A stretch of 35,791 nt of DNA. Origin: Basidioascus undulatus. Lineage: Eukaryota. The notes below the pieces were generated by a model. The model was not told the DNA's origin. It saw only the letters and a program-made list of their open reading frames with translations, and did not search any database. Position numbers and translations under genes: made by a program. Within the stretch, counting starts at the first letter, position 1. Each line of letters begins with the position of its first letter. The stretch spans positions 1 through 35,791 of the forward strand of contig JTLS01000064.1 of NCBI GenBank assembly GCA_000826855.1, in the 5' to 3' direction. Shown here piece after piece: positions 7,018-33,760 of this stretch.

Positions 7018-8710
7018 ATGCCAAACGGCGGCAGCCCTTCGGTACTCGTTCAGACTATGAAAGCTCTGCGCTTTCACGCGAAACGCGACCTGCGTATCGA
7101 GGACATCCGGGTCCCCTCTCCACGTGCAGGGGAGATAAAGTTTAAGGTGAGTAATAACTCCCCTCTTTTAACAAGATTGAGATTCTGAATAGCTTTGCCG
7201 CCTCCAGGTGGCGTGGTGTGGCATTTGTGCGTGGACTGCTTGCAAACCCTAGGATTACCTCACGAGCCGTTTCAACAGGCGGAAGCGACATACACGAAGT
7301 GCACATTCTTTCTCCCCGGTATTTCCAAGTCAGCTGGAGCTAAAATTGCTTTCAGTTCCTCGACGGGCCAGTCTGTGCCGGGATCCTGGCAACCCTCACA
7401 AGACATTTGACACATCCCTTTGGCTTTGACGGGCGATTGTTTCAAAAATTGTTTTACTGACTTTGGCATTCTCAGCCCCTCAACCATGGGCCACGAGTTC
7501 AGCGGCAGCGGCACGGTCGTTGCCATTGGGCCGGACGTCGACCCAAAGTTCGAGGTCGGCCAGCAAGTCTGCGTCGAGCCGACGATCTCATGCCGCAAGT
7601 GCTCGGTCTGTCAAGCTGCACTCTGTAAGCATAATTCCACGTCGCAAAGTTCATGGCTAACGAGTATTCCCCGACAGACAACATTTGCCCGGACCTTAGT
7701 TTTGTGTAAGAATGCGGTACCAGGATCCAGGATGGGTGGTTCACATCTTGCCGGACAACGTTTCCCGTGCGTGACATGATGCTGATTCTCTTACCAAAGA
7801 CGATTTTTTAACAGCACCTTTCAATGGAGCGAAGCAGGAGCCTTGATGGAGTTATATTCCCAAAAAAAACCCCTTGACGTCAACCCAGACTGGTGGCTCA
7901 CATCCTCGGCGGTCGCTCGCAACCTAGCCACTTGCTGTCGCGTGGCACGCGGTCGAAAGGGGCTCCTTCAGAGCCGGACAGTTCGGCTCTCGTTATCGTT
8001 TCGGGACCCATCGGACTCTTCATCATAAGGCCCTGAAGGCTATATAGGGGCGTCGTTCATCGATGTCAGCGAGCGATGGACGCCCGCAAGAAGATGGCCC
8101 TGCATGCTGGAGCAGACCTCGTTTGGGACCCGAGGACGGCTGATGTCGAGGTGAGTAGCTCTGGGAGAGGGCATTGCTGTACCCGCTAACCAGGGAGACT
8201 GTAAACTACCAGGCAGAATGTCAGAAGGCCTCCCAAGGCGGACAAGGCGTAGACTGCAGCTTTGACTGCGCCGGTGCATCTGCTGCAAATTTAGGTGTCC
8301 GTGACAAGCAAGCTAAAGCTCCGCCGGAGGGGCACGATCGTGAATATTGCAATCTGGGTAGGCCGCCTTTAGCTTTGTGGACCTTGTCGAGCGATTGCCT
8401 CACACTTCGGCTCGGACCAGGAACGCCCCACCTCGCTTAATCTAAACGACCTCCTGCTTCAAGAGCGGACTACACGGGAGCAAGTGGCTACGCGAACAAC
8501 CACCCGGACGTCCTAGCAGCGGTATCCGAGGGCCGAATTACATGCGACGGTTTGTTTGCGCGGCACTTGATTTCAGCAAGAGATACTGAAATATCGGATC
8601 CAACAGAGTTGATCACGGCTAAAATCCCTTTGGAGAAGGTCGTCGACGGGGGATTCCGGGAGCTTCTCAACCACAAGGAGCGGGACATCAAGATCTTGAT
8701 GCAGCCGTGA
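7018..8710 (+). pseudogene. Decayed Zn-dependent medium-chain dehydrogenase (2,3-butanediol dehydrogenase-like)
   Basis: Recognisable motifs: MKALRFH, VAWCGIC|GSDIHE, MGHEFSG, CRKCSVC..NIC, PLAVAWHAV, GPIG, DCSFDCAG and IKILMQP*. Frame breaks near 7380, 7981, 8027, 8075 and 8469. A splice donor is missing near 7421, and the first Gly of GxGxxG reads as Val. Confidence 0.85.
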
Positions 8711-8975
8711 ACCGGAACCGGGCGTGTAGCTCGAGTCTTCCTGTCGTGCACTGCTTCGCTCTACCGCTGTGCCTTACCTTCATACGGGAATGAGGGGTTT
8801 GCATTTGTATTTAATTCTATGACGAGACAATATGTTCCCCTCCCGAGTTATCCAAGCACGGAGCATATCGAATCACAGCTCGTCATGCACAACGCCCGAA
8901 GATACAAGTGTCACCTCACCTCCGTGTGCTGTTGGAAAATTTGAGCATGCAAGATTTTTACAGGTCTACAGAGAA

Positions 8976-10175
8976 ACTCACCTCTTTGACCGCTCCAGAC
9001 GAAATAAACGTCCTCCACTGCTCGTCTTCTTCCCGGTACCTCTCCGCCTCGAGCGCATGCGCATCGTAGCTCCCATCCTGAAACTTGGCCCACTCGATCG
9101 TCCCCCGTCCCTCCGCACGAGCTCCGGACATCTCCTCCAGTACGTCCAGCACCACTTCTTCCGTTTCCCCTTTCACCCACACGGTAACCCGGATCGTCGG
9201 CTCGCCCGGCAAGTCGTCTAGCACGACGCGCACGAGCGGCGCGAAGTTGTCCTCCGCACGCGCACGCATCCCTTCCTGCAGCGCGATTACCGCGGTACGC
9301 AGGCCGGTCGCGGCGGTGGTGAGGACGACACTCGCCTGCTTCGGGAGGACCAACCAGCGCTGAACGAGAGGGTGTAGCAACCCACCACGGAGGACGATCC
9401 CCAGCGTGCGGAGGAGGACCTGTGCGCGCGGCACCGTAGGCGGTTGTGTCGGGGTGGGCGTGGCGGAAGCGAAACGAGGCTTGGGCAGGGAAAAGACGAC
9501 GCGAAGCTCGCTGCGCGTCGTCGGTGTCGCCTAGCTCGAGCACGTTGACATCTGTGAGCTCCAAGCTCTTCGTCGCGTCCTCGACCTCCTCCGGTGACCC
9601 CGAAGCGACGAGATCGAACCCCAAGCCGTACCCGTGGTCGGTGGTGAGGACGTGAACAACGATCCGCCCCGAGTCGACGATGACGATTGTTGACTCTCCT
9701 CGTCCGGCCCGTCAGACCGATGCCCAACCCAGTGAGGGTGGGGAACGGCTCTGAGAACGTCCACGCCGATTCGGGGTCGATGAGGCCGAGCGCCGTGACG
9801 GCCGCAATGCGCTGCGCGTCGGTGAGCAAGGGCGGGACGGTCAAGCCAAGGGCTTCGATGGGGCTACAGAGCTTGGTCGCTTATGTACGAATGAGAGAAC
9901 TTTAAGCGGGTTCAATTTGGAGAGGATACGGACCAATTGAATGCACCTGCCAACTTCGGTAGCTCCGCCAGCACCTGAGCGAACATTTGCGAAGTCTCCT
10001 CTCCCTCTTCCGCGTCGATGAAACCGTTTGAGGGGAGAATCATAAATGCATTACCATCTGGAGTGTCGCTGTCAATGGGCTGTTCCGAGTCGGCAGCGAA
10101 GACGACCGCAGCGAGGATGAGAAGCGCAACCGTGACGAGCGACGTCGCAGTTGTCAGAACCTTTAGCTGAAACAT
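8976..10175 (-). pseudogene. Probably decayed gene for an unknown protein with an N-terminal signal peptide/anchor
   Basis: Exon 10175-9934 (MFQLKVLTTATSLVTVALLILAAVVFAA) splices in frame through intron 9933-9864 to ..FNC PIEALGLTVPP... A frame change is needed near 9705-9720, and there is no phase-compatible canonical donor near 9510 for the 9419-8976 exon. The 3' end is uncertain. Confidence 0.5.
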
Positions 10176-15289: not shown

Positions 15290-17261
15290 CAGCGCTACAT
15301 TACGTTGGGCAATAACAGACACCCACCGTGATCCCGCCGAACAATGCTGAAGTAGTCACAGCGGAGTCAAAGGATTAGCCTCTTCATAAATTTTCCTGTG
15401 ATTTTGTGGCTTTGGGCATCTAATATGGGATACTTGTACAAGCGGACAGTGTGCTCGTGCAGGCTGCGCCCTGGGGTGCCCACACTGCGATCGAAACTGT
15501 AGACTCGATTGAAGTCACCGGAGGCCATTAGAAGAAAAAACATGCTGCTTGAGCTACAATGGAAGCCGCCGGCGGGATGAATTTAACGGCCTGCCGCTGT
15601 TGCTGGCTGCAACGCGGGGCATACTGCCCAGCACGCGCTCCAAGTGACGAGTTTCACCAAAAAGGGGCAAACATATCTCATTAATGCACAGCTCCGAGAG
15701 TCGAGCAAGTACATCCTTTGTTTCGGATCCGTCCCCTCATGCCACAAGTTGCACAGGAGACAGCCAGCGAAGGCAAACGGGGCCCGCCGCGGTCACACAA
15801 GATTGGTCCAGCCCAAGCATTTTATGAGTAATATGCCTTCTCCCAAAAATAAGGAAGAGACCACATAAAGTGGACGGACCTCAATTTACTTGAGGGACTG
15901 CTTCGGTACTCGAGCAATCGTCGGTTGAAGACGGCTGTGGGCCCGAACGGGGCTTTTTTGTGCCTTGTTGAAGCAAAATGCTAAATGCTGCCAGTCTCCC
16001 AGCCATTTTACTTTCACAGAAAGCATCTGCAGCGTCATTCTTCTCGCGTAGACTGTGCAAAGCATGGGAGGCGAGCAATGTCCAATATTTGGGCGTGCCT
16101 GATGAAAGACAATGCGTCGTATGGAAAGGGCCGCCACTGCCTGTAAATAAAATTTAAATGGCCTTGTGAATTCCACATTTATTTACAAAGAAGCCGGCAT
16201 GGAAAGCAGCTGCATTGTTCTGAGGTGAAAAATGGAATACGTGAAAACGCCGTGAGAGAAGCTGATTATGCGTGACACGCAAGAACGCAAGATACGACAG
16301 CTATGCCGGAAAAACACCGCGCACCTTCATCTCCTCGAGCACTGCTTACAGCTTGTTTGAACACTGCAGCACTTATGCGCTGCGATCACGGTATGCCATG
16401 GTCATGGTAAAAAGTTACACTGACCACGAGCGCTCTGCCGTTCACCGTCTTCCTCACGCTCCCTCTCTCTCGATCGCAACGTTGCTCATATCATGGAGCC
16501 CTCGAGATTTGGTATCATCATAACGTACCGATATTATCCCCACTCGCCATACATATGGAGAGTAGAGTAACGCCGTTCCGGTGGTTCCCTATTTCTCTGG
16601 TGCGTAGCACTTCTGCTGCCCTTACTGAGCGATTCGTCCTGGTTCATGCATCGCCTTCACTCCGCAGTTTCATGTATACAATGCAAGTTACAAAGAGATA
16701 ATTCTTCAAGCTGTGAGGGCCCAAGCCGCGTCGCTGCCCTGAGGCGGGCGCAGAGCGACGGGCGACCAAACAAACGACCGTCAGGAGTTTGACGGAACGC
16801 CCAACAGCTGATCCGTCGCGTCGAGGCGCCCTCGTTCTTTATCCTCTCCCCACGATCATCTCGTACACCGCGCCCCCCCCAGAATACAAAATCTCTGCAT
16901 ACCTCCAGCGCAACCCCACTACATCTTGATATCGCAGCTTGGGCGCCCGTACTCTCCTCGGTGAGTAGGCGCCCTGCTTCTCGCCAGGTTGGTGGACGCA
17001 TCATCCGCACTAGATCCCTTGCTTCGACCTGGCTTTACATTTGAAGAATCTCGGAGAACCTCCTTGTCGACGCTCAGCCGGTTGTATTCGGACGGGGCTA
17101 TCCCCTGATCTCTTCCAGTGGCGCTGACGACCGTCTTCCATCTTTACAGCGCCGCGGCTGCAATCGCCCTTCTCCGCTATCTAACCGCACCCTATACCTT
17201 CACCCACCTACCACCACCACCTCTACACGTATTCTTTCTCCCCACCTGCGCCGCTCTCAGC

Positions 17262-20200
17262 ATGGCTCCATCTTCGTCTCTAAGCAAGCTCCTCGAGCCC
17301 GTCTCCTCGTACCCGCTCTCGAAAGAGAACAAGTCCTCCCTCACCCCGACGCTCAAGGCGCTGGCGCAGCTGCTGCCCAAGCTCGAGCGCGCCGAACCCC
17401 CCGTCGCGGTCGCGCGCGAGATCGGCGAGCTCTTCAGCAAGAACGCCACCGACCTGTACATCCATGTCGGACTCGCCGCGCTCGCGCTCGCGGAGGGAGT
17501 CCTGCGCCGGCTCTGGGATCTGGCAAGAGCTGAGCCGAGCTTCACGTCTTCGTCCGACGACAGCGAGGACGGGGCGTCGTCGGAAGGCCTCCCGCCCGGA
17601 GGCGAGTGGGAGAGTGCGGTCACGATGGGAGTTCTTACCAGCTTCGAGGTGCGTCTTCGTTTCCATGAGGCAAAGCGAGCTCACGCTGACAGGGAACGGA
17701 CGGTCCGCAGGACTACCTCAACGACAACGAGCACAAGCCAGATTTGTCACTTTTCGCCGGCCGGCTCTACGCGATACTGGTCTCCATTCTCCGCTTCGTG
17801 CCGTCGGACGACGCCGAGGAGTACAAGCTCTCGCCCTTAGGCCGCGCGAAGGTCAGCTCTTTGTGCACTGTTGAACACGATGAGACCGAATTGACATTAT
17901 ATACCTTTCAGATCGCTATCATCCTGAATCAGACCCTCGCCGGAAGCCCCGCAAACAAGCTGCTCCTTCGCTCCGACGGCTTCCTTCCCGAGTGCGTGTG
18001 CCGTGCTCCTCCCACTTCGGCCCGATACGCGCTGAATTCTCCCGCCTTTCGTCAGTACTGTGCTTGGTGACCTGATCGGCAGCGCGGATGGTGCCCCGAC
18101 TGTAACGAACAGCGTGAGGAACCAGTGACTGACGATGCTGCGCAGACCCCGACCTCCTCATCGCCCTGCTCGAGATCGCCCTCCGCACGATGAAGCCCCC
18201 CCGCAAGAATGCCTCCGAAGACGAGGCCCGTCGCGACCGCGCAGAGCGTCGCGCGGCGTGCGAGACCATATTCCGCGCTGCGGATGCACCCCATCTCGCC
18301 AACGCTTTCTTGGACGTCACAGTCACGTCGTGGGCGGAGGTACGTCGGTCTGTGTCTATTGTTGGCTTTGCATCGGAATTGACTCACGTCTCCCATCAGG
18401 ACATGGACAACATCCTCGGCGGGATCGCTAAGATTGACCTCTCGCGCATCCAGCTCTTCCACGCGCTCAAGGTCGTCGCCGGAAGTATCGATCTTCACGA
18501 GACGTACGGCATGGACAAAGACACCCCGCTGCGCGTCTTCTTCACTCCTCAATCCATCGTGATCCATACGGCGGAGGTGAGGCTTTATCGAGCCTGTCGC
18601 TCACGGAACGCGGAAACTGACTTTCATCTCGCCGCAGGAACAAGATCGGCTCGAAGTTCCGCTCAACCGTCGCGAGGTCGGGCAGATTTCAATGCGCCAC
18701 GGAGACACTTCCGGTGCGTACGCTATTCATGTCGCAGAACACCATCCTTGAGCGCTCATCCTCTACCCCCTTCCGTCAGACATGTTCGTCTTGAAGATGC
18801 TTCTAAAGCAGTCCCCTCTTCGTTACGGCGAGCGCCACCCCGACGTCCCTGCCGGCAGTACCGTTCGCATCGTACTTCCGCACACGGAGAAGACGCGCTT
18901 GAAGGACCTCCTCTTCTTCCTCGGCTGGATGAATCCCACGCGGTCCCGCGCGGTCCCGCAAGAGGGGCCCAAGGCTGCGAGACCGCCGAGCGTCGTTCGT
19001 GGCATCGAGGTCCTTAGCTCCGCCCCTGTCTGCCCAGACTTTGTGCGGATCTCACCCGACTGTCCTGCTCTCAACAGGTCCAGGTCCCCACCCCGCCCGG
19101 CGCCCGCATGCAATTCCAGTCGCAGCTCTCGCAGCCGCTAGCCAGCTCTCAGCCCGTCTTCGAACCGCCCCGCTCGGGAAAGTCCACTCCAGCGCGCCCA
19201 GCGCGGGCCGAGGGCCCGGGAACGAGCAGAAAGCGTCGCGAGAAGGAAGTCGAGAACAGTGCGTCTTCTTCTTTCGCCCTCTCTATCTGCAAGTGCTTCG
19301 GACTACAAATGACATGTGCATTACTTGCCTCAGTCTACAATACCGACGGTCGGTCCGAGCCGCCCGACGCCGAGGACTTCGACAACGGCGGCAGGCGCGA
19401 CGACGCGGTCAAGCTCGGGTACGCGTCGCGCCTGACCGTGCCTTCGCCCGGGCACACCGCTTGCCCATCACCGAAGGCGAGAGCGCCGTCGAGTCCGAAG
19501 GGCGTCACGCACTGGCAGCCTCCCGTCCGGGCGCCTCCTCTCGCTCGCCAGTCCTCGGCCGTCCGCGCTGTCCTCGGCGGCTCGGAGGACGATTCGGCTC
19601 TGTCCTCACCGCCTCCGGGGCCCGCGCAGCAAACCACGAGCGGCCAAGAGCCCGTCGAGCAGCCCAGCGCGGCGAGGCCGACCCGAGCGAGCGCGAAGAA
19701 GCGCAAGTCGTCCGACGCGGTCGAGCCCGCCGACCAAGTTGAAGCCGACGCCGCGGCGTCCGCCAGCAAGAAGAGGAAGATCTCCAAGCCGTCATCGCCT
19801 CCGCAGGACGCCGTCGAGCCCAAGAAGACGCCCGCGCGCAACAAGCAGCGCTACGGCAAATCTGCCGCCAGGCTTTCCGCGCGTCGCGGTCGGGCGGGCA
19901 AGGGGACCTCCGAGGCCGGGACCGAGGACAAGAACGACCAAGTCGACTTTGACGCGATCCCGGGCGCGTCTGCAGCCGACCAGGTCAGGGCCTCCTCGCG
20001 CTCCTCGACGGGCAAGAAGCGCACGGCGGCGATGCAGTCTAGGAAGAACGCCAAGTCCGCGTCGGCCCCGTCCGACGACGAGTTCGACGTGCTCCCTCAA
20101 CCGGCCATGTCGGCCGCGTCGACGGACGGCAAGGACAAGGGCAAGGGTGCGGCTCAGTCCAAGCCGCCGCCGAGCAAGAAGAGCAAGACGAAGAAGGACG

Positions 20201-23116
20201 ACGCGTCGCCGTCCGCAACCCCTCTCGCTAAACGCGCGACTCGCGCGTCCAAGAAGGCCGAGTTGGCGTCGATGAACGCCGAGTCCTCCGCGCCCGTGGG
20301 CGACGAGCCACCGCTGAATCGAAAACTTCGCAGCACGAAGCAAGACACGCTCGGACCGGCGGACACGGATGAGCGCGAGACCTTCCTGCCCCCCCCGCCC
20401 CCTGTCCGCAAGACGCCCGTCAAGCAGAAGGACGAGAAGGCAGGGGCCGGCTCAGCAAGTCGGGCGATGCTCGCGGGCGAGCTCGAAGCCGAGGCGCTGC
20501 CGCGCGGGAGTCGCTCGGGCGACGAGGAGGGCAAGCAGGGCAAGCAACTGCTCATGGACGATGACAACAATCACCTTTCGGCCCTTTCCGTCGCTTCTTC
20601 GCCGTCGCCGTCGCCCTCCTCGCGCCCGCCGTTCATCTTCGGCCAAGTTCCGGCCGTCGTCGTCCAGCCTCCGACGCAGGAGGCTTCCCGAGCATCTCTC
20701 GGTTCTCGCACATCGCGCTCGGCCGAACGTTGGCAGACGGAGGACATCGCCGGGCGTCGGACCGAGGGCAGCGGTGGACAGGGACAACGGCGGGAAGGTC
20801 TGAAGGTGAGCGGGACGATCTTTTTCACCACTCTGGCGGACTGCTGATGAGGTACCGTGCTCCTCTTTCTCTCGCAGACCACTGAGCCTCGTCCGGCACC
20901 GCAGCCAGCGGCCTCAACCTCGAAGCGTCGCGCGACCGCCGAGACGCCTGCTCCGAAGCCTTCGGTTGCTCCTGCCGAGACCAAAAGCGCGACAAAGACG
21001 TTCCGCCTGCCGTGGCTGGCGAAGGACTACGCGCAACCGCAAGAGCCAGTCGACGCAGAGATGTCCGAGCCCGCAGCCGCCGTGCTCGAGGTCGAGCAGT
21101 ACGAGAACCCCTTCGACGCGGAGACATACGAGGCGGACGTGCCGGACAGTCTTCCCCTCGTGCGTGTGCGTCGCCAGGTCTTCCTCGGTCGTTATCGCCC
21201 AGCCGCTGACACGTCTGTGCAGGCCGACAAGCAGGTCCACAACCCGATCCACACAGGGACCCCGTCTATCAAGGTTCGTAGCACCGGTGCACGCACAGCT
21301 TTCCCTTCCGCTTTAACTGGAAGCGCGCCGACAGAGGCGTGAGACGTCCAAGAAGTCTGCCGATGCGGACGACGCTTCGCCGCCCGTCGCTCCAGCCCCC
21401 ATCCCGCCCACGCACCAGACCCCGACAGTGCCGCCGCTCTCGCACTCGACCTCCAAGGCGCCCAAGCCGTCCAAGGCTCGCTCGCCGGCACCTGAGAAGC
21501 CGATGGTGTCCTCGGAGAAGGACAAGGTCGGTCGGTCGCTTGATTCCGCTGTGCGATCCTAAGCTGACCACCGGCGGATAAGCAGTCTCGCGCCGACGTT
21601 CCGGCTCCTGCGATGGTCCCGCTATCGAAGCTTGCCACGCCTTCGCTCGTCGGGCAACGTCTGCCGTATGGAACGGCGAGCGGGGGCTCGGCACGCCACG
21701 AGAAACCCGCTGCTCCCTCGCGCGAGCCTGACGCCGACGCAGACATGGATTTGGGCTTTGAGGGAGGCGCGGACGGGAAGGTGCGTCGCTGTGTAGTGGG
21801 CTGAAACGCATGGGGCCTGACGTGTAGTTTTTCGACAGTTCGCTGTCGAGGGTGCGCCTCTCGCGGGTCACCGACCGGCAGACCCCGAAGCGACTCTCGG
21901 TGCGCCGGCCGTTCAAAAGCATCTCAAGACTGGCAAGGGCAGCCCTTCGGGCATCTACGACAAGGTGATGCTCTTCTACAACTGTCAACGTGCGCTGCCT
22001 GCGGACGCTGATGACATGCATCTCGCAGGACGGCAACCTCGCCGCAGCGTACGCGGCGCTCAGCAAGGGATTCACGGCCGAGCAGCTCAGGAAGATCGAG
22101 CAGATGATGAAGGACAACGCCGCCAGCGCGGACGACGTCGACGGCATAGAAAGCTCGGACGAGGACATCCAGAGCTTCAGCGACGACAACTGCGCGCGGA
22201 AGACGTCGCGTCCCGCTCCGCACGAGCACGGCCGCGACGAGGACACGCCCACGCAGCCTTCCTCCGTGGCTCGCTGCCTATTCATCCGCGAGCCCTCGCG
22301 CGACGGCCTGCTGAGCTCTCCGGACGCCCCGGCGCCGATCGCTCGCCCTGCGCCTACGAGTGAGTCCTAAGCGGTTGCCGACGAGGTTAAAGCCGCTGAC
22401 AGTTCATGCCTCAGCCGTGGCGCCTGTCTTCATGAACCCGACCGCGAGGCGGGTCGAGATCGCCGCGGCGAGCGCGAAACACAGCAAGAGCGCCGCCGCG
22501 CCCAAGCTCAAGTCGTCAGAGAGGAGGAAGGGCGGTAAGGCGGGGACGGGGCCGGTTGAGGAGCCGGCGCCCGAGCGCGGGGGGAAAATGCAAGAGGTGC
22601 TCGAGGTACACTCTCCGCCGCTCACTCCGCAGGGACATCATTTGAAGCTGCTGCTCTAGGTCATCGATGCCATCCACTTCGAGATCAGGAGCAGGATCGA
22701 GGGCACGCCCGACGGCATCCTCGACGATGCCCGCAGCGCAGCGCGTGCGCTCATGCGCGAGGCGGCGGACGTAATGCAGGACTGCGTCGAGGACACGTGC
22801 GTTCTTCGTCATTCTGGGACCAGGAGATGACCCGTCCTGAGCCCAGACCCACAGAGCGTCCGTCGTAGCTCACATTCGGACGCATGCGGAGAAGATCAAC
22901 GCGCACTTCGGCGTTTCGCAGAAGGCATTTGCGAAGCTGCAGAAGCACGACGAGGCAAGTCACGATCAATCCTCGCCTGTCTCACGCTGCGATGCTGAAT
23001 CACTACGTCGTTTCCTCCTCCAGAAAACGGCTCGCGCAATCAAGCAAGGCCGGGGCATATCCGAGGGGATGCGTCACGTACCAAGGGAGTTCTTGGTCAA
23101 GCTGTCGGGGGAGTGA
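17262..23116 (+). CDS. Large (~1,550 aa) protein; candidate SYCP2/Rec10/Red1-like meiotic chromosome axis core protein
   Basis: About 20 exons join in frame from ATG 17262 to TGA 23114-23116. Architecture: helical N-terminal domain, beta-rich domain (to ~18940), very long S/P/K/A-rich disordered region, short amphipathic helical C-terminus. The gene model is well supported; the family assignment comes from remembered motif similarity. Confidence 0.7.
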
Positions 23117-23893
23117 GAGCGCACGGGTGTAGGGACGCTGTATGGAGGTTCGACCGGCCTATGAAGCTGGAGCAGCATGGAACCGTTTGTGCGAGCTACC
23201 CGGCTTGCTTCCTGTCGTAGCCCACCGCCAGTTCATTGATCGTCGCAGGAAGAGCAGAATAGACTTCAACATAATGCTCACTCGATGCAGATCCTCCGGC
23301 TAAACCTGGATTTTCTCTTTTAGAACAGCCCACCAGTCCAACCCAGCAGCCGACAGCCTCGCAGTCGCGCCGCAAGCGCTTGAACTGGTCTTCAGTTTCT
23401 GCCCTGCCCGGAACCATACATGCGGTATGAGCTTTACCGAAGGAATCGAGACTCGGCTCTGCGTATCTTTGCTCTTCTATGAGAGGATTACCTCTGTCAG
23501 TATAACGGCTCGTTGAAGGTGGCGCAGCGTGCCGGCGTGAAACATGTTACGTTCAGTCCATGTCGCGGTTTGAAACTGCCTCGCCACTTGCCACATTCAC
23601 GACTTGCACTCCGCCTTAAGCGCGCCCAAAGTTCGTAAAGTCTACATGGCTTCTGGAGTATTTTTGAAAAGGACAAGGGTCTTTTTATTAATGTAGTCAG
23701 AGTTTGACTGATTTCCCAGCTGGTCTGAATGTGGCTGTGCTCGGTGCAGTCGATGCGTTTTTTGGGAGGTAGCGTCCGCGGAATGGAGCCGGAAGATGGT
23801 GGCCAGACGCTGCTATCTTTCTTGTCCTTCTTCTACCTCCATGTAGACACCTCAGGCCCTTTTCCACCTTCACCCTTTACGCGGTTGCCAGCC

Positions 23894-26461
23894 ATGTCGC
23901 CGTCCGCGCCGCGGAGCTCGCCGACAGCGGCGACGACGCCGTCTCGCCCGCCCCGGATCGAGATCCCTCAGAGCGCCGCGCCGACGTCGTACCGCAAGCA
24001 CTCAGGCTCGACCGCCGCGCAGTCGACGTCCTCATCTTCTCCGCCGAATCCCACCCACACGCACATCCCGCTGTCTCCCGGGTCTACCGAGAATGACCTC
24101 GAACGGCAGCGGATGCAAGACGTCGACTCTGCCCGGCAGATAAGCCGCGCGCGGAGCGGGTCCGTCGCCCAGACATTCACTCCCCGCGTCCGCCGCGGGA
24201 GTCGGTCGGCGGACGAGGACGTCGAGGAGGAGGAGGAGGAGTACGACGAGGATGGCGCGTTCATGTTTCCCCTTTCGGCCGGCGAGAAGGCGGAGATGGA
24301 GCACGCCAAGGCGGGAGGCGCGTACGACTCGGACAGGGAGGCGGAAGCCCCTCGGCAACGGCGCAGTACCCACTCGGTCGACGCCAGCGGACACGACCAT
24401 CGCCCGAGGCGCCGGCGTCCATCCACTAGCTCCAAGACGAGCCGTCGGCGGAGGTCCGGGAGCGGCGGCGAGGAGGAGGGCGACGAGGTCTCAGGAGCAG
24501 AGGCGATGCTGGCGCCCAACAAGTTCGACTTCGCCCACCTGGACGCTTTCGCGGCCGCCGAGTCTTCCCAGCTCGGTCTTCCGTTCTCTCCTCGTCCCGC
24601 TCCCGCACCGGCGCCAGATGCCGCGCTCCGCCAGCGTCCAGCCAAGCAGCGGCACCTCGCGCTGTTCGAGTCGGCTGGCGCTCCGCCTCCCTCCTTTCCC
24701 CCCTCGCCTAGCCCGTCCAAGCCTCCTGCGACCCCGGCAGAGGCAGACCCGTACGCGCCTCCGCCTCCGTCGCAACCCGATCCCGCTCCGCCACGTCCGA
24801 CCAGCGGCAAGGACTATCGCTTCTCGTTCTACTCGAACGCCCTCCCCGCGACGATCCACGCGCGCTCGCTTGCGGAGCTACCAATGCTCGGACAGGGCTT
24901 CGAGGAGCTTTTCTCCGGCCGGACGGCGTCGCCGTCATCCGGGAGCGACACGGCAGTCGCGAGCGAGGCGAACAAGGCGGCGGGCGGCGGCGGCGGCGGT
25001 GGAAGCGGAGCAGGAACGCCCAAGACGCAGCCGAAGGAGGTCGACCCCGAGGCCAACACCTGGTGGCTGGATGTCCTATCGCCAACGGACGCGGAGATGC
25101 GAATGCTGTCGAAGGTACGTTCTGTCTCCTCATTGCTTCATTGCTACGAAGTCTCGCCGACATCAAGGGCGTGCCACAGGTGTTCGGCATTCACCCTCTT
25201 ACGACGGAAGATATCCAAATGGAGGAGACGCGCGAGAAAATCGAGCTTTTCAGGACCTACTACCTCGTCTGTTTCCGCTCGTTCGACCAGGACCCGTACA
25301 GCCCAACGTACCTCGAGCCGCTTAACATGTACATCATCGTCTTCCGCGAGGGCACGCTGTCGGTTCGTTCCGTTCCTACTCCATTTCAGCTCCCGTGTTC
25401 GGTGGCCGACAACATGCGCTCTCATTGCAGTTCCACTTCCGCGGCACTCCGCACCCGCAGAACGTTCGCCGCCGTATCAAGCAGCTGCGGGATTACATCA
25501 ACGTGACGTCCGACTGGATCTCGTACGCGCTTATCGACGACATCACGGACGCGTTCGGGCCATTGATTCAGTCGATCGAGTACGAGGTCGACTCGATCGA
25601 CGAGCTCGTCCTGATTCTCAAGGAGAGCGAGCAGAGCGACATGCTTCGGCGGTGGGTCGTCTGCAACGCGTCGTCTGCAACGCGCAGCCCAAAGCGTTGA
25701 AAACTGACTTGAGAGGCTGCTTCCCAGGATCGGCACGTGTCGGAAGAAGGTCATGGGCTTGTTGAGGTTGATGGGCAACAAGGCGGACGTCGTCAAGGGC
25801 CTGGCGAAGCGTTGCAACGAGAACTGGTCGGTGGCGCCGAAGTCGGACATTGTTCGTCTAACCGCTTGCCGTCCTTCAGCTCTCTATTGCGAAAGCTGAC
25901 TCCCTCTTTCTTCCAGGGTCTCTATCTTTCCGATATTCAGGTTCGGCTTCATTCGCGCCTTCCAACTCCCTGACGAGCACTGTGCTGACCTCCATTCGTC
26001 GGAAACAGGACCACTTGATCACGATGACGCAAAACTTGAACCACTACGAGAAAATTCTTTCGCGCTCGCACTCCAACTACCTCGCGCAAATCTCGATCGA
26101 GATGACGGAGGCCAACAACCAGATCAACAACGTCCTTTCGAAGCTCACCGCGCTCGGTACGGTGCTCATTCCCATGAACATGATAACCGGTGCGTGTCAC
26201 ATTTGTGTTTGGAACATTTCTGTAGGGGTGATACTGACCGTACGCTGGACATGCAGGTCTGTGGGGCATGAACGTCCAGTACGTTTTTATTCAGTGCGTG
26301 GGTAAACACGATGAAGGTACTGATCTTTGGTGATGTGCTTCAGCGTACCTGGAGAGAACGCGCCCGGCCTCAACTGGTTCTTCGGCATCCTCGGGTGCTT
26401 GGTCGGCATTGCTACGCTCGTCGGTCTCATCACCTACCGGTGCATTGTCCGCCAACAATAG
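23894..26461 (+). CDS. ALR1: CorA-family Mg2+ transporter, fungal Alr1-like
   Basis: Motifs WWLDVLSPT, FGIHPLTTEDI, REKIELF, DWISYALIDDITD, YLSDIQDH, YEKILSRSHSNYLAQ, and TGLWGMNVHVPG (GMN motif) between two TM helices. Stop TAG at 26459-26461. Confidence 0.93.
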
Positions 26462-29559: not shown

Positions 29560-29632
29560 GGGCATTTGGTGTAGGGGCTATCACATCTCATTCGCATTGA
29601 GGGGGTCCCCGGTTCAATTCCGGGAATGTCCA
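29560..29632 (+). tRNA. tRNA-Ala (anticodon CGC), intronless
   Basis: Acceptor stem GGGCATT/AATGTCC with the G3:U70 alanine determinant and discriminator A. Anticodon arm TCTCA-TTCGCAT-TGAGG (CGC at 29593-29595). T-loop GGTTCAATTCC. A downstream T-run follows. Confidence 0.95.
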
Positions 29633-30132: not shown

Positions 30133-32988
30133 CTATCGCTTTTCCAACGCAAACGCCACATAGAGATCTGCCATTGCCCCGCCCTCACGATCAGCGCCTG
30201 TTCCCACCCCGCGACAAGAACAGGAAGGCGAGAAGGAAGTGATGAAAAATGAACAAACGCACTGGCAGCCTCCCACTGGTCCTCAGTCATGTCCGTCTCG
30301 CCCTCGCGGTTGACGACGTTCATGCGCTCAAGGAGCGGGCCAAACTCGCGCGACTCCTGCTCCTCCGCAAAGACCTCGTGGAACTCCTTGCGGTAGAGCA
30401 CGTGGAGGTTGTACTCGTGGGCGAGTCTGCACCCCACCCCACAGGATCAACATCAGGGAAAATCCGGAGAAAGGGGGGAAGGGGAAAAAGGGACGAACAA
30501 CTCGAACACGTCCCAGTGGACGACGAACTCGGGCGCGTCGACGGCGTCCGAGAGGTAGAACCAGTAGCGGTGCCCGAAGTCTGCGCCTGCTGGGTCAGGC
30601 TCGCGCGCGTCAAACTTGATCGTGTACACGTCGTTGCCGAAGGCGAGCTCGTCCGCGTCGTCCGGGATCTCGCGCAGCTGGGTCCTGTTTTTCCTCCGCC
30701 GCACACTCAGCATCTCCGGAACCAGAACTGGGCCAGACGAGCAAAGTGGGGAGACGGGAAGGGGGAGACGGAAACGGAAACAACGGAGAAAGGGAGGAAG
30801 GGAAGGGAGGAAGGGATAAGGGGGAGAAGGATGAAGGGAAGAGAGGGAGAGAGGAGTCTGGGAAGGGCGGGAAGAAGGGGAAAGAGGAGAGCGAGCTGGG
30901 ACCGACAGGAGTTTGTCCGCGTTGGGTATCGTCCCCAAAAAGATGCCCCCCGGGCGGAGGTGGCGCGAGACATTGTCGAGCATCGTGCGCGCCTTGTGCT
31001 CCGTCTCGAACGCGTAATGCATGCAGAACTGCATCGAGACGACGTCGAACGGCGCCGAGAGCCAGGGCGCGGGCACGTGTGCGTCGATGGGCTCCTGGGA
31101 ACCATCAGCACCCGCCCCCCGTGCCATTCGTCAGTAACGAGGAGGGACAGAGGTAGAGGGGACAGGGATGGGGATGGGAAAGAGGGGATGGAAGGAGGTG
31201 AGGAAGGACGCACAGAGAAGCAGTCGAACGCGGCAAAGAACGCGTCGAACCGGTTCTGCCGGATCTGCTGCCACCGCGAGCGCGCCTGCTCGATCGAGAC
31301 GTCGGCGATGTCTGTGTGTGCGGGGTGCGTGGAAGAGAACGGGGGATGGAACGGGGGATGGAACGGGGTGGGGTGCATCAGCGCTGCTGATCGGGGAGTG
31401 TACCGCGCAGTCACGCCCAGCTACTCGGCACCCAGCACCGGCCGTCGTCCGTCCAACCCTTCCATGCGTCCATCCACTCATCCCATCCTCCACCCAGTCG
31501 CAGCCGCATCCCCCTCCGCACCTGTCTGCCCTGCCCTCCCCCGCGGCCCCTCCCCAAAAAAATTCCCCAGTGCCGCAAAACGAGATGGGTCCTACTCACC
31601 GAGCCCCACATACCCCCTCACCCCCGCCTTCTTCCACTTCTGCAGATCCCCGCCCTTCCCGCACCCCATATCCAGCACCTTCGCCCCTCCTCCCCCGCCG
31701 CGATCTCGCCCGCTGGGGCGAGGGACAAACTTGCCGATGAGGACGGACTTGATCCAGTTGTTGAACGCGCGCAGGCCGTAGATCGGCGAGGCGCGCCGCG
31801 CGTCGATGCCCGTTTCGGGGCGGGCGTTGTCTGGGCAGCGGAGGAGCGAGAGGTTAGGGAGGAAGAAAGGGAGAGGGAGTCAGGAGAGGAAAAATGGAGA
31901 CGGGAGACGGGAGTGGGAGGGGTGAAGGTAAAGAGGAGATGGTGGAAAGGAGAAGGGGAAAGGAAGAGAGAAGACGAACAATGCGAAGCGACCGTGCCCG
32001 AGTCGCCCTCGTGCATCGTTTTCCTCCTTACCAGCGGGCGTTCCAGCCCTGCCTCGTCGGTAGCCTCGCTCAAGCCGCGCTTGCTCCCATGAGGGCTCTC
32101 ATGCGCCGCTTTCCTACCATTCGAGGGGATGGCGACCGCAGCGGGCGTCTCGAGGAGAAGCTGCTTTGGGCGCCGGAGCGGATTGGCGCTGTTGCGCGGT
32201 GCGAGCGCCTCGGCCTCCTGGGTCGTGAGCGGGCGGAGGACGGAGGACGGAGGAGCGGAGCGCGAGGGGTGATGGGGGTTGTAGGGCTTTGCGAAGCGCT
32301 TGGGCCCGGCGGCGGGGGTTGGGGGAGGCATGGTGCTGCTGGATGCGGCGGAGGAGGAGGAGGAGGGGCGCGGCAAGGGGACGTGCGGTGAGGTAGTGCT
32401 GGTGCTAGTGCTGGTGCGGGTGGATGTGGATGGGGAGGAGCGGGAGGGGGGGCGAGGGGATTGGGAGCCGGGCGAGGAGATGGGGAGGGCGGAGGGGAAG
32501 GAGAGCGAGGGGCGGCGCGACGAAGGGGAGTGCGAGTGCGCGGCTGCCGCGGCCGTTGTCGAACTTGACGGGAGGGGCGCCGGGCCTGGCACGGCGTCGG
32601 GGGGTACGCTGGCGGGTGTGCGTGGGTATCCCGAAGGACTGCGCTGAGAACCCCGCGAAGAAGTGAACGGGTGGGGTGGGTGGTGGGCGTCTGGTTCAGG
32701 GCCTGAGGGCAGGCTGGGGCGGCGTGGTGGAGGGGCAGGGGAGAGGAGGGAGTGGACGGAGATGGGCGAGGCGGAGGGCGTGGGCGGCTGGGTGTGCGGT
32801 GCTGGTGCAGGTGGTAGGGGCCCGGTGTCGTTTAGGAGGAGGGAGAGAGAGCTCCCGCGGGGTTTGGAGGTCGTGGTGCTGATGGTGGGGGACGAAGGCG
32901 GGTTGTGTGTAGGCAGGAGGAGGGAGGAGAGGGAGGACTCCTCGGACGGGGACTGCACGACCATGTCGCGGATCGGGTCGTACGGCAT
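30133..32988 (-). CDS. ABD1: mRNA cap guanine-N7 methyltransferase with a long Pro/Ser-rich N-terminal extension
   Basis: Motifs VASH|YNARP..SPIYGLRAFNNWIKSVLI, VLDMGCGKGGDLQKW (SAM motif I), DIADVSI, FDVVSMQFCMHYAFE, LRPGGIFLGTIP, PEFVV and WEAA|NLYVAFALEKR*. Stop TAG at 30135-30133. Confidence 0.96.
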
Positions 32989-33760
32989 TTCGGCTGCGTC
33001 TGCGAGCAGGAATAGTGTGTTTGTGGGGACTGGGAATGGGAATGTCTGGCAGGGGCGGAGGCGGGGGCAGGGGGAGCGAGGGGAGGCGAGCGGCGCATTC
33101 GGTCCCCCTCTCGTGCTGCGATCGCCTGCGAATCGGTCGGCGCTACAAGAGTCGGGTACGCTGCTGATACCGTCGCTGTCGCTACCAGAGCCGTGAAAAA
33201 GAAGGGGAAAAAAGAGCTAGTGCGAGGGATAAGGACGAGCTGCGGAGTGCGAACGGGGGTTGATGGGCCCGTTGTGAGCGGCGCAACACGCGGGTCAAAA
33301 GACGGAATCCGCGGCGTCACCATGGATTATCTGGGTAGGCACGCATTGCAAACGCATGCCGCTCGATTCCGCTCCAGACAACACTCATTGCTCTTCTCGC
33401 TCACCAGGAGCTCAAAAATGAGCAGTTCACAATCCAGACTTGCAGCTCGTGGTTGCTGTATGCTGATTTGGCAACGTTGCAAGGCCCGATTGATATAGAC
33501 GACGATTCGGCCGCGGACGCGGACGACCAACACGAACACGTCCGACGAGGACGAGGACGAGCTCAAGCTGACCCAGAGCCGTACTATCGCTGTCCCGGGA
33601 GGGCGGGCGAGGACGTGGACAAAAAGTGCGCCGAGTTTAAAAAGAGCTTTATAGCGAAGGTGAGTGAGCGTCAGCGGAGGTCTAGCGTTGAGGACTCGCT
33701 TGTGGGTGCGGCGAGGTGGACGCGACTGGGACGGGCGCTCGCGTCGGAGGCACTGCGCGT

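What the first reader, a model, noticed from the sequence alone, without database searches (positions are those of the whole stretch)
17262..23116. Hidden, highly divergent SYCP2/Rec10/Red1-like meiotic axis gene
Seen: ~20 exons, invisible as one ORF, splice into a ~1,550-aa protein with a helical domain, a beta-rich domain, ~1,000 disordered residues and a terminal amphipathic helix. Known: this is the layout of axis core proteins (ARM-like + PH/Spt16M-like + closure motif + IDR + coiled coil). Inference: the blocks VLGDLIGSADDPDLLIALLEIALR, HLANAFLDVTVTSWAEDMDNILGGI, RIQLFHALKVVAGSIDL and LRVFFTPQSIVIH occur in the same order and hydrophobic pattern as my recollection of the SYCP2 ARM-PH junction (AGDYDLQVGIVEALCR..IAKAF..FETDCRIFLN..RVFTFPC..FWIDFN). 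Such genes diverge fast and are often left as hypothetical. An intact copy would point to retained meiosis.
Basis: partly seen in the sequence, partly recalled or inferred. Interest (0 to 1): 0.75.

Follow-up and report, generated by a model that had tools for sequence, protein, structure and literature searches.

The report
Possible meiotic axis gene, unproven
A real 20-exon fungal gene encodes a 1,556-residue, mostly disordered protein whose layout resembles meiotic chromosome-axis proteins, but no search or fold prediction could confirm that identity.

Summary
On the + strand, 17262-23116 splices through 19 short introns (54-75 nt) into one stop-free CDS of 4,671 nt, giving 1,556 aa. Third-codon-position GC is 0.81, against 0.57 GC in the introns. 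Every intron has a branch-like motif.

The layout is also as described:
- a hydrophobic N-terminal ~420 aa, alpha-periodic first and then beta-periodic;
- about 1,000 aa rich in A/P/S/K;
- a C-terminal ~115 aa helical tail with the best heptad-like pattern in the protein.

The interpretation as SYCP2/Red1/Rec10 stays untested. Exon-level Pfam, PDB phmmer, two word-indexed searches and one exhaustive HMMER search found no relative. This test had low power. The conserved neighbouring cap-methyltransferase gene is only about 55% identical to its best database hits.

The spliced protein could not be handed to the fold tools. Two contiguous fragments folded at pLDDT 48 and 36, which is unusable. 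A language-model search places exon 1 near HEAT/ARM N-terminal domains, with weak recognition.

Verdict: a real gene with an axis-core-like layout. Probability of axis-core identity about 0.35.

The parts
17262..23116 (+). Whole CDS span of the 20-exon gene (ATG 17262, stop 23114-23116), 1,556 aa
   Evidence: Model from coordinates, no internal stop. GC3 0.81. No in-frame ATG between the upstream in-frame stop (17106-17108) and 17262.
17262..17648 (+). Exon 1 (aa 1-129), alpha-periodic, with an acidic/Ser-rich loop at about aa 93-118
   Evidence: Nearest named language-model clusters are HEAT/ARM N-terminal domains at 0.92-0.94, with recognition 1882.
17711..17851 (+). Exon 2 (aa 130-176)
17912..17991 (+). 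Exon 3 (aa 177-202 plus 2 nt)
18056..18090 (+). Exon 4 (35 nt, aa 203-214)
   Evidence: The shortest exon. Position 3 is not the GC-richest here.
18146..18339 (+). Exon 5 (aa 215-279), helical in a low-confidence model
18400..18576 (+). Exon 6 (aa 280-338), where alpha periodicity gives way to beta periodicity
18638..18713 (+). Exon 7 (aa 339-363 plus 1 nt), beta-periodic
18780..19009 (+). Exon 8 (aa 364-440): the end of the beta-rich part with its closing helix, and the start of the linker
   Evidence: The donor could instead be at 18992 or 18995.
19078..19258 (+). Exon 9 (aa 441-500), disordered. Together with the end of exon 8 it is the place where a HORMAD closure motif would be expected.
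   Evidence: Composition. The expected position comes from PMC6349405 and PMC12871700. No test of binding was possible.
19334..20805 (+). Exon 10 (aa 501-991), the main A/P/S/K-rich disordered linker, with KKRK clusters at aa 622 and 646 (about 19696-19707 and 19768-19779)
   Evidence: No Pfam match.
20878..21159 (+). Exon 11 (aa 992-1085), linker with an acidic F/Y-containing island near aa 1060-1085
21223..21273 (+). Exon 12 (aa 1086-1102)
21335..21526 (+). Exon 13 (aa 1103-1166), Pro-rich linker
21586..21780 (+). Exon 14 (aa 1167-1231)
21839..21964 (+). Exon 15 (aa 1232-1273)
   Evidence: The acceptor at 21838 was chosen because the alternative at 21827 leaves no open frame downstream (own reading).
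22029..22359 (+). Exon 16 (aa 1274-1383). Its first ~30 codons (22029-22118) form an amphipathic island inside the linker.
   Evidence: The best heptad-like score outside the C-terminal tail, at aa 1294-1296. The only Pfam match is a sub-threshold DUF6466 hit, E = 0.036.
22415..22605 (+). Exon 17 (aa 1384-1447). The helical tail starts at about 22585.
22660..22796 (+). Exon 18 (aa 1448-1492), C-terminal helical region
22855..22954 (+). Exon 19 (aa 1493-1526), the core of the heptad-like stretch (aa ~1473-1525, window ~22735-22951)
   Evidence: Maximum heptad score 8.3 at aa 1484, against 7.9 for the 95th percentile of 200 whole-protein shuffles. 1.9% of 1,000 shuffles of the last 120 aa reach it.
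23024..23116 (+). Exon 20 (aa 1527-1556 and stop), preceded by the single GC-AG intron (22955-23023)
   Evidence: That intron is in-frame and stop-free, with in-frame GC3 of 0.43, so it is probably spliced but could be retained.

Best explanation
This is one intact, intron-rich gene of a basidiomycete. It encodes a 1,556-aa protein, probably nuclear, that is mostly disordered.

My most likely specific reading is that it is this organism's axis-core protein of the SYCP2/Red1/Rec10 type. Under that reading:
- the N-terminal ~415 aa (alpha-solenoid part plus beta-rich part) would be the ARM-PH module;
- the stretch just after it would hold the closure motif that recruits the HORMA protein Hop1;
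- the ~1,000-aa linker would carry short docking motifs, for example for cohesin;
- the C-terminal ~115 aa would oligomerise as a coiled coil to build the axis filament.

Shown here: the gene model, the coding signal and the three-part layout. Inferred only: the fold, all binding steps and any meiotic role.
For: - Gene model and coding signal.
- Layout. aa 1-425 is hydrophobic. aa 426-1435 is A/P/S/K-rich with low hydrophobicity and two KKRK clusters.
- The alpha-type hydrophobic moment dominates aa 1-92 (50% against 20% of positions). The beta-type dominates aa 293-415 (52% against 12%).
- The best heptad-like window in the whole protein lies in the C-terminal tail: 8.3 against a shuffle 95th percentile of 7.9.
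- For exon 1, 8 of the ten best named language-model clusters share a family or clan with the top hit, RRP12-type HEAT. The listed rows include RTP1, listerin, MMS19 and RPN2 N-terminal domains, at scores of 0.92-0.94.
- Sizes are comparable to published ones: folded N-domain of 345 aa in Red1, closure motif straight after it, disordered linker, C-terminal coiled coil (PMC12871700, Introduction and Results read). The SYCP2 closure motif sits at 395-414, directly after its N-domain (PMC6349405, passages read).
- Family members are known to escape ordinary searches. [quoted passage not shown]
Against: No sequence relative of any kind was found:
- Pfam on 14 exon pieces at E <= 10: 0 relevant families. 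Four further in-frame pieces at E <= 1: none.
- PDB phmmer on 5 pieces at E <= 10: 2 irrelevant hits, an integrase and a designed helical bundle.
- Word-indexed searches with exon 5-6 and with exon 1: 0 hits.
- Exhaustive HMMER over 1.84 billion representatives: 1 hit, a bacterial repeat protein that I judge spurious.

The fold was not established; the fragment models have pLDDT of 48.3 and 36.1. In the atlas search, recognition was below the tool's 2300 mark in both calls (2265 and 1882), so those hits are weak. The heptad-like stretch covers only about 55 aa and the tail contains a Gly/Pro break, which is shorter than the ~95-aa Red1 coiled coil. The alpha/beta and heptad scores are home-made heuristics using hydrophobicity scales recalled from memory. 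The layout is not unique to axis proteins.
Confidence: 0.35

Rival explanations
1. A different nuclear or chromatin scaffold with an N-terminal alpha-solenoid domain, a long disordered linker and a C-terminal oligomerisation helix, not involved in meiosis. Examples are a Rif1-like phosphatase-docking scaffold, a DNA-damage or replication mediator, or a lineage-specific regulator.
For: The layout and KKRK clusters fit any nuclear scaffold. The exon 1 neighbours are generic HEAT/ARM N-terminal domains, none of them meiotic. An R-V-x-F-type tetrapeptide lies at aa 324-327 (printout). Its resemblance to a PP1-docking motif and the Rif1 architecture are recalled, not tested.
Against: No Pfam match to Rif1_N or any other family on any exon. 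aa 293-415 looks beta-periodic rather than all-helical. The RVxF-like tetrapeptide sits in a hydrophobic, probably buried strand (low-confidence model).
Confidence: 0.3
2. A fast-evolving, lineage-restricted gene with no counterpart in known families. Its resemblance to axis proteins would be coincidental and its role cannot be named from sequence.
For: Zero credible relatives in any search. Both atlas queries fell below the recognition mark.
Against: The searches had low power. Queries were single exons. The conserved cap-methyltransferase neighbour is only about 52-56% identical to the best of 120 database proteins, so this lineage has no close annotated relative. A long intact ORF spread over 20 exons with strong GC3 argues for maintained function.
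Confidence: 0.22
3. The region is not one gene. The N-terminal domain (exons 1-8) and the linker plus tail would be separate transcripts, or part of the model is wrong.
For: The intron 8 donor in my model (GTCCTT at 19010) is the weakest of the 19. Without that splice the frame ends about 40 codons later. Exon 9 holds an in-frame ATG. There is no RNA evidence.
Against: Two alternative donors (18992, and 18995 GTTCGT, the same hexamer as the intron 12 donor) also keep the frame. GC3 stays high on both sides, 0.79 in exon 8 and 0.80 in exon 9. There is no intergenic gap; exons 8 and 9 are 68 nt apart.
Confidence: 0.08

Closest known systems
SYCP2-type axis core proteins (mammalian SYCP2, S. cerevisiae Red1, S. 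pombe Rec10)
   Same: Order of parts: a folded N-terminal domain of roughly 350-420 aa (helical, then beta-rich), a long disordered linker, and a C-terminal helical or coiled-coil tail. Total length is close to SYCP2's, which I recall as about 1,500 aa. Like these proteins it is invisible to BLAST-level searches.
   Different: No detectable sequence similarity to any of them or to the Pfam families for them. The family names (SYCP2_ARLD, SYCP2_SLD, Rec10/Red1) are recalled; none appeared. The fold is unverified. The heptad-like stretch is only about 55 aa. The linker is about 1,000 aa, against about 370 aa in Red1 (PMC12871700).
Rif1 (telomere and replication-timing scaffold)
   Same: N-terminal alpha-solenoid, long disordered region, small C-terminal oligomerisation module, nuclear. 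The architecture is recalled, not taken from a call.
   Different: The Rif1 solenoid is much longer and all-helical. There is no Rif1_N Pfam match here. Here the last ~120 aa of the N-domain look beta-periodic.
Generic HEAT/ARM N-terminal domains (RRP12, RTP1, listerin, MMS19, RPN2)
   Same: Language-model features of exon 1 are nearest to these, at 0.92-0.94.
   Different: Those proteins are solenoids along most of their length. Here only about 300 aa are helical. The hits are leads only (recognition 1882).

Membership tests
SYCP2-type axis core (SYCP2/Red1/Rec10) | Significant profile similarity (E < 1e-2) to the last ARM repeats plus the PH domain (criterion of PMC8131943, section 8) | tested here: not met
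   Pfam hmmscan of the exon pieces at E <= 10 and E <= 1: no family. phmmer against PDB at E <= 10: nothing relevant. HMMER over 1.84 billion representatives: 1 hit, spurious. Power was low. The queries were single exons or read-throughs, and the clade-specific iterated HMMs of that paper were not available.
SYCP2-type axis core (SYCP2/Red1/Rec10) | N-terminal domain folds as a packed ARM-like plus PH (Spt16M-like) module | tested here: inconclusive
   Only contiguous fragments could be folded, without an alignment. They gave pLDDT of 48.3 and 36.1, so no fold search was made. Moment heuristics give alpha then beta periodicity. Exon 1 lies near HEAT/ARM families by language-model features.
SYCP2-type axis core (SYCP2/Red1/Rec10) | HORMAD-binding closure motif directly after the N-terminal domain | not testable with these tools
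   No Hop1 gene is in the window and no motif consensus is available. The position (aa ~425-470) is disordered, with a short hydrophobic core between basic residues (printout). That is only suggestive.
SYCP2-type axis core (SYCP2/Red1/Rec10) | Long disordered linker between the N-domain and the coiled coil | tested here: met
   aa 426-1435: A 14.6%, P 12.4%, S 11.3%, K 7.6%. Hydrophobic fraction is mostly 0.02-0.24 per 41-aa window.
SYCP2-type axis core (SYCP2/Red1/Rec10) | C-terminal coiled coil that forms tetramers and filaments | tested here: inconclusive
   The best heptad-like score in the protein is at aa ~1473-1525. It exceeds the 95th percentile of shuffles, and 1.9% of local shuffles reach it. 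The score is home-made and the stretch is short. Oligomerisation was not tested; the tail is split over four exons, so no contiguous query exists.
SYCP2-type axis core (SYCP2/Red1/Rec10) | Meiosis-specific expression and axis localisation | not testable with these tools
Rif1 | Rif1_N HEAT-repeat domain | tested here: not met
   No Pfam match on any N-terminal exon at E <= 10.

The most novel reading that the evidence does not exclude
The gene is the axis-core protein of a basidiomycete lineage that has no close annotated relative. It is a SYCP2-length form, with a ~1,000-aa linker, in a phylum where BLAST-based meiotic toolkits list RED1 as absent (Cryptococcus neoformans) or not detected (Basidioascus) (PMC4500085 table). 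One subphylum, Ustilaginomycotina, yielded no SYCP2/3 homologue even with HMM hopping (PMC8131943, section 11 passage). The amphipathic island at aa ~1269-1303 would then be the counterpart of the Rec8-binding DR3 helix of Red1 and ASY3.
Probability: 0.12. Interest if true: 0.55.

Novelty: new member of a known kind. Interest (0 to 1): 0.3.

Why it matters
If it is the axis core protein, it marks an intact meiotic axis toolkit in an unannotated basidiomycete. It would also add a very divergent sequence to a family whose fungal members are hard to align. That could help define what is truly conserved: the ARM-PH surface, the position of the closure motif, and cohesin-docking helices in the linker.

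Basidiomycetes are known to undergo meiosis, and SYCP2-type genes have been reported in a wide variety of fungi (PMC8131943). A specialist would therefore expect such a gene to exist. The value is in annotation, not in concept. If it is not an axis protein, it is one more uncharacterised disordered nuclear protein.

Tried and rejected
- **Anchoring introns by typed window strings.** I dropped that step and used numeric coordinates.
- **Intron 14 acceptor at 21827.** Rejected, because the downstream frame closes. I used 21838 instead.
- **Intron 18 acceptors at 22891 and 22894.** Rejected, because they lead into the wrong frame. The acceptor at 22854 gives a continuous helical tail.
- **Database relatives.** Exon 5-6 and exon 1 word-indexed searches found none. 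The exhaustive HMMER search found one bacterial repeat protein (P0001), which I rejected as spurious. The third word-indexed search went on calibration with the cap-methyltransferase exon.
- **Atlas search with exon 5-6.** Best score 0.84, to planctomycete hypothetical proteins. No lead.
- **AF2 on two contiguous fragments.** pLDDT of 48.3 and 36.1. I therefore ran no fold search, since low-confidence models give meaningless matches.
- **Complex prediction.** Not used. The tail and the beta-rich part are each split by frame-shifting introns, and neither outcome would have moved the odds between the rival readings.
- **Antisense and off-frame ORFs in the target.** No Pfam match and weaker GC3. 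Rejected as genes.
- **Collections not searched.** No fungal genome DNA could be searched for orthologues.
- **Supplement of PMC8131943.** This holds the species table and the SYCP2-type sequences. It could not be read, so which basidiomycetes already have a listed orthologue remains unchecked.

Full report
**What is there**

Stop-to-stop ORFs on the + strand between 17.2 and 23.1 kb are short and change frame repeatedly. This is what an intron-rich eukaryotic gene looks like. I first listed GT...AG candidates with branch-like motifs, then fixed a model by numeric coordinates.

The model runs from ATG 17262 to the stop at 23114-23116. It has 20 exons and 19 introns of 54-75 nt, of which 18 are GT-AG and one is GC-AG (22955-23023). 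The CDS is 4,671 nt, giving 1,556 aa with no internal stop.

**Is it more than chance?**

In GC-rich DNA, long open frames and GT...AG pairs are common, so I relied on frame-specific composition.

- GC at codon positions 1/2/3 of the model is 0.66/0.53/0.81, and the introns have 0.57 GC.
- Position 3 is the GC-richest in 16 of 20 exons (P = 2.5e-5 against one third).
- The Pfam-confirmed cap-methyltransferase exons elsewhere in the window show the same GC3, 0.81-0.87.
- Antisense ORFs inside the target show only 0.61-0.72. They have no Pfam match; 10 antisense or off-frame ORFs were scanned.
- Eleven introns shift the frame, and three more carry in-frame stops.
- The five that are in-frame and stop-free have in-frame GC3 of 0.43-0.62.
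- All 19 have a CTGAC/CTCAC/TTGAC-like motif 13-35 nt before the acceptor.
- No in-frame ATG lies between the upstream stop and 17262.

Some ambiguities remain, but they keep the frame. The intron 8 donor could be at 18992, 18995 or 19010, the intron 11 donor at 21160 or 21166, and intron 19 could be retained. No transcript data exist here.

**Layout of the protein**

- aa 1-425: 20-44% hydrophobic residues per 41-aa window.
- aa 426-1435: A/P/S/K-rich (14.6%, 12.4%, 11.3%, 7.6%), with mostly 2-24% hydrophobic residues and two KKRK clusters, at aa 622 and 646.
- Last ~115 aa: Pro-poor and hydrophobic again.

A simple hydrophobic-moment scan gives alpha periodicity at aa 1-92 (50% of positions against 20% beta) and beta periodicity at aa 293-415 (52% against 12% alpha). 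A home-made heptad score peaks in the C-terminal tail (aa ~1473-1525) at 8.3. The 95th percentile of 200 whole-protein shuffles is 7.9, and 1.9% of 1,000 shuffles of the last 120 aa reach 8.3.

The best-scoring region outside that tail is an amphipathic island at aa ~1294 inside the linker. These scores use scales recalled from memory and are heuristics.

**Searches for relatives**

- Pfam on 14 pieces covering 17 of the 20 exons at E <= 10 gave only two sub-threshold, irrelevant matches: DUF6466 at E = 0.036 and CvfB_WH at E = 0.079.
- A second Pfam scan of four more in-frame pieces at E <= 1 added nothing.
- phmmer against all PDB chain sequences at E <= 10 used five pieces: exon 1, exons 2-3, exons 5-6, exon 8 and the C-terminal read-through. 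It gave one prophage integrase and one designed helical bundle.
- Word-indexed searches of 5.8 billion proteins with exons 5-6 and with exon 1 (longer proteins allowed) gave no hit at E <= 0.01.
- An exhaustive HMMER pass over 1.84 billion representatives with exons 5-6 gave one hit at E = 4.6e-5. It is a 651-aa bacterial Gly/Asp-rich repeat protein that matches partly over the intron-encoded insert. I reject it.

So the claimed block-by-block likeness to the SYCP2 ARM-PH junction has no support from any alignment method available here.

**How much do these negatives mean?**

Not much. The database does hold fungal proteomes. A cap-methyltransferase exon from the window found 202 proteins at E <= 1e-10, and the named ones among the 120 listed were basidiomycetes. 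None of them is close, though. tblastn of the 120 listed proteins against the window gives at best about 55% mean identity over about 330 aa, with Agaricomycetes at 52-56% and Sporidiobolales at 52%. The window's own protein was not listed.

This lineage therefore has no close annotated relative in the collection. A fast-evolving protein would be out of reach of single-exon queries. The literature says the same of this family. [quoted passage not shown]

**Structure**

No database orthologue was available to fold, and the spliced protein could not be submitted. I folded two contiguous read-throughs without an alignment. Exon 5-intron 5-exon 6 gave mean pLDDT of 48.3. Exon 7-intron 7-exon 8, with X at the intron's stop, gave 36.1.

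Their secondary-structure strings are helices through exon 5 and the first part of exon 6. After that come strands with a closing helix in exon 8. This agrees with the moment scan, but the confidence is too low to count, and I ran no fold search on them.

A language-model look-alike search was the only positive lead. For exon 1, 8 of the ten best named clusters share a family or clan with the top hit, RRP12-type HEAT. The listed rows include RTP1, listerin, MMS19 and RPN2 N-terminal domains, at 0.92-0.94. Recognition was 1882, below the tool's 2300 mark. The same search with exons 5-6 gave nothing above 0.84. An alpha-solenoid start is compatible with an ARM-like domain but is not specific to SYCP2.

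**Comparison with the known family**

Axis core proteins are described as follows (PMC12871700, Introduction and Results read; PMC6349405, passages read):

- a folded N-terminal ARM-PH domain (1-345 in Red1);
- a closure motif straight after it (346-362 in Red1; 395-414 in SYCP2);
- a long disordered linker with short docking motifs, one of which binds the Rec8 winged helix;
- a C-terminal coiled coil (733-827 in Red1) that forms tetramers and filaments.

The protein here fits in order and size of parts, with a much longer linker. The published membership criterion is significant profile similarity over the last ARM repeats plus PH, together with a C-terminal coiled coil (PMC8131943, section 8). 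The first half was tested here with weak tools and not met. The second half is only suggested. I therefore do not file the gene as a member. I say that it is built like one.

**Rival readings**

- *Another nuclear scaffold with an alpha-solenoid head, for example Rif1-like.* No Rif1_N match was found, and the beta-periodic segment argues against this particular case.
- *A lineage-restricted gene of no known family.*
- *A mis-joined model.* The weakest point is the intron 8 donor, but two other in-frame donors exist and GC3 is continuous across the junction.

**Context and novelty**

BLAST-based meiotic toolkits list RED1 as absent in Cryptococcus neoformans and not detected in Basidioascus (PMC4500085, table passage seen). 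HMM hopping found SYCP2-type genes in 'a wide variety of fungi' but none in Ustilaginomycotina (PMC8131943, section 11 passages seen). The supplement listing species could not be read.

I could not place the organism beyond 'basidiomycete', so I cannot say whether an orthologue is already listed for its group. The two literature searches for axis-core proteins in basidiomycetes returned no paper with an experimentally characterised one in the listings I saw. One search, which searched for meiotic-gene surveys of basidiomycetes, returned none either.

**Verdict**

Interest is modest. If true, this is a new and very divergent member of a known kind.

Noticed in passing
window 29560-29632 (+): A tRNA-Ala gene (anticodon CGC), found by both Rfam (54.5 bits) and ARAGORN. 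It is the only RNA family match in the window.
   Followed up: no
window 30243-31879 (-), extending to about 33216: A multi-exon mRNA cap guanine-N7 methyltransferase (ABD1-like) gene, with Pfam PF03291 matches on four ORF pieces. Its upstream ORF on the same strand is a Pro/Ser/Thr-rich stretch. This explains the strong + strand GC skew (+0.41) at 32001-33000.
   Followed up: partly
window 23729-26302 (+): The next gene downstream is a CorA-like Mg2+ transporter split over several exons (three sub-threshold PF01544 matches in profile order). It is preceded by a long Ser/Pro/Ala-rich N-terminal ORF.
   Followed up: no
window 7411-7776 (+) and 8961-9530 (-): An exon with an alcohol dehydrogenase GroES-like domain (E = 2.5e-9), and an exon with a weak Hsp70 match at threshold (20.7 bits against a cut-off of 20.6).
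   Followed up: no
window 22955-23023 (+): The last intron of the gene has a GC donor (GCAAGT) instead of GT. It is in-frame and stop-free, so retention would add 23 residues to the C-terminal tail.
   Followed up: partly
whole window: No protein of this window appeared in the protein collection. The best cap-methyltransferase matches are only about 52-56% identical across both Agaricomycetes and Sporidiobolales. The source therefore looks like a basidiomycete lineage without a close annotated genome.
   Followed up: partly
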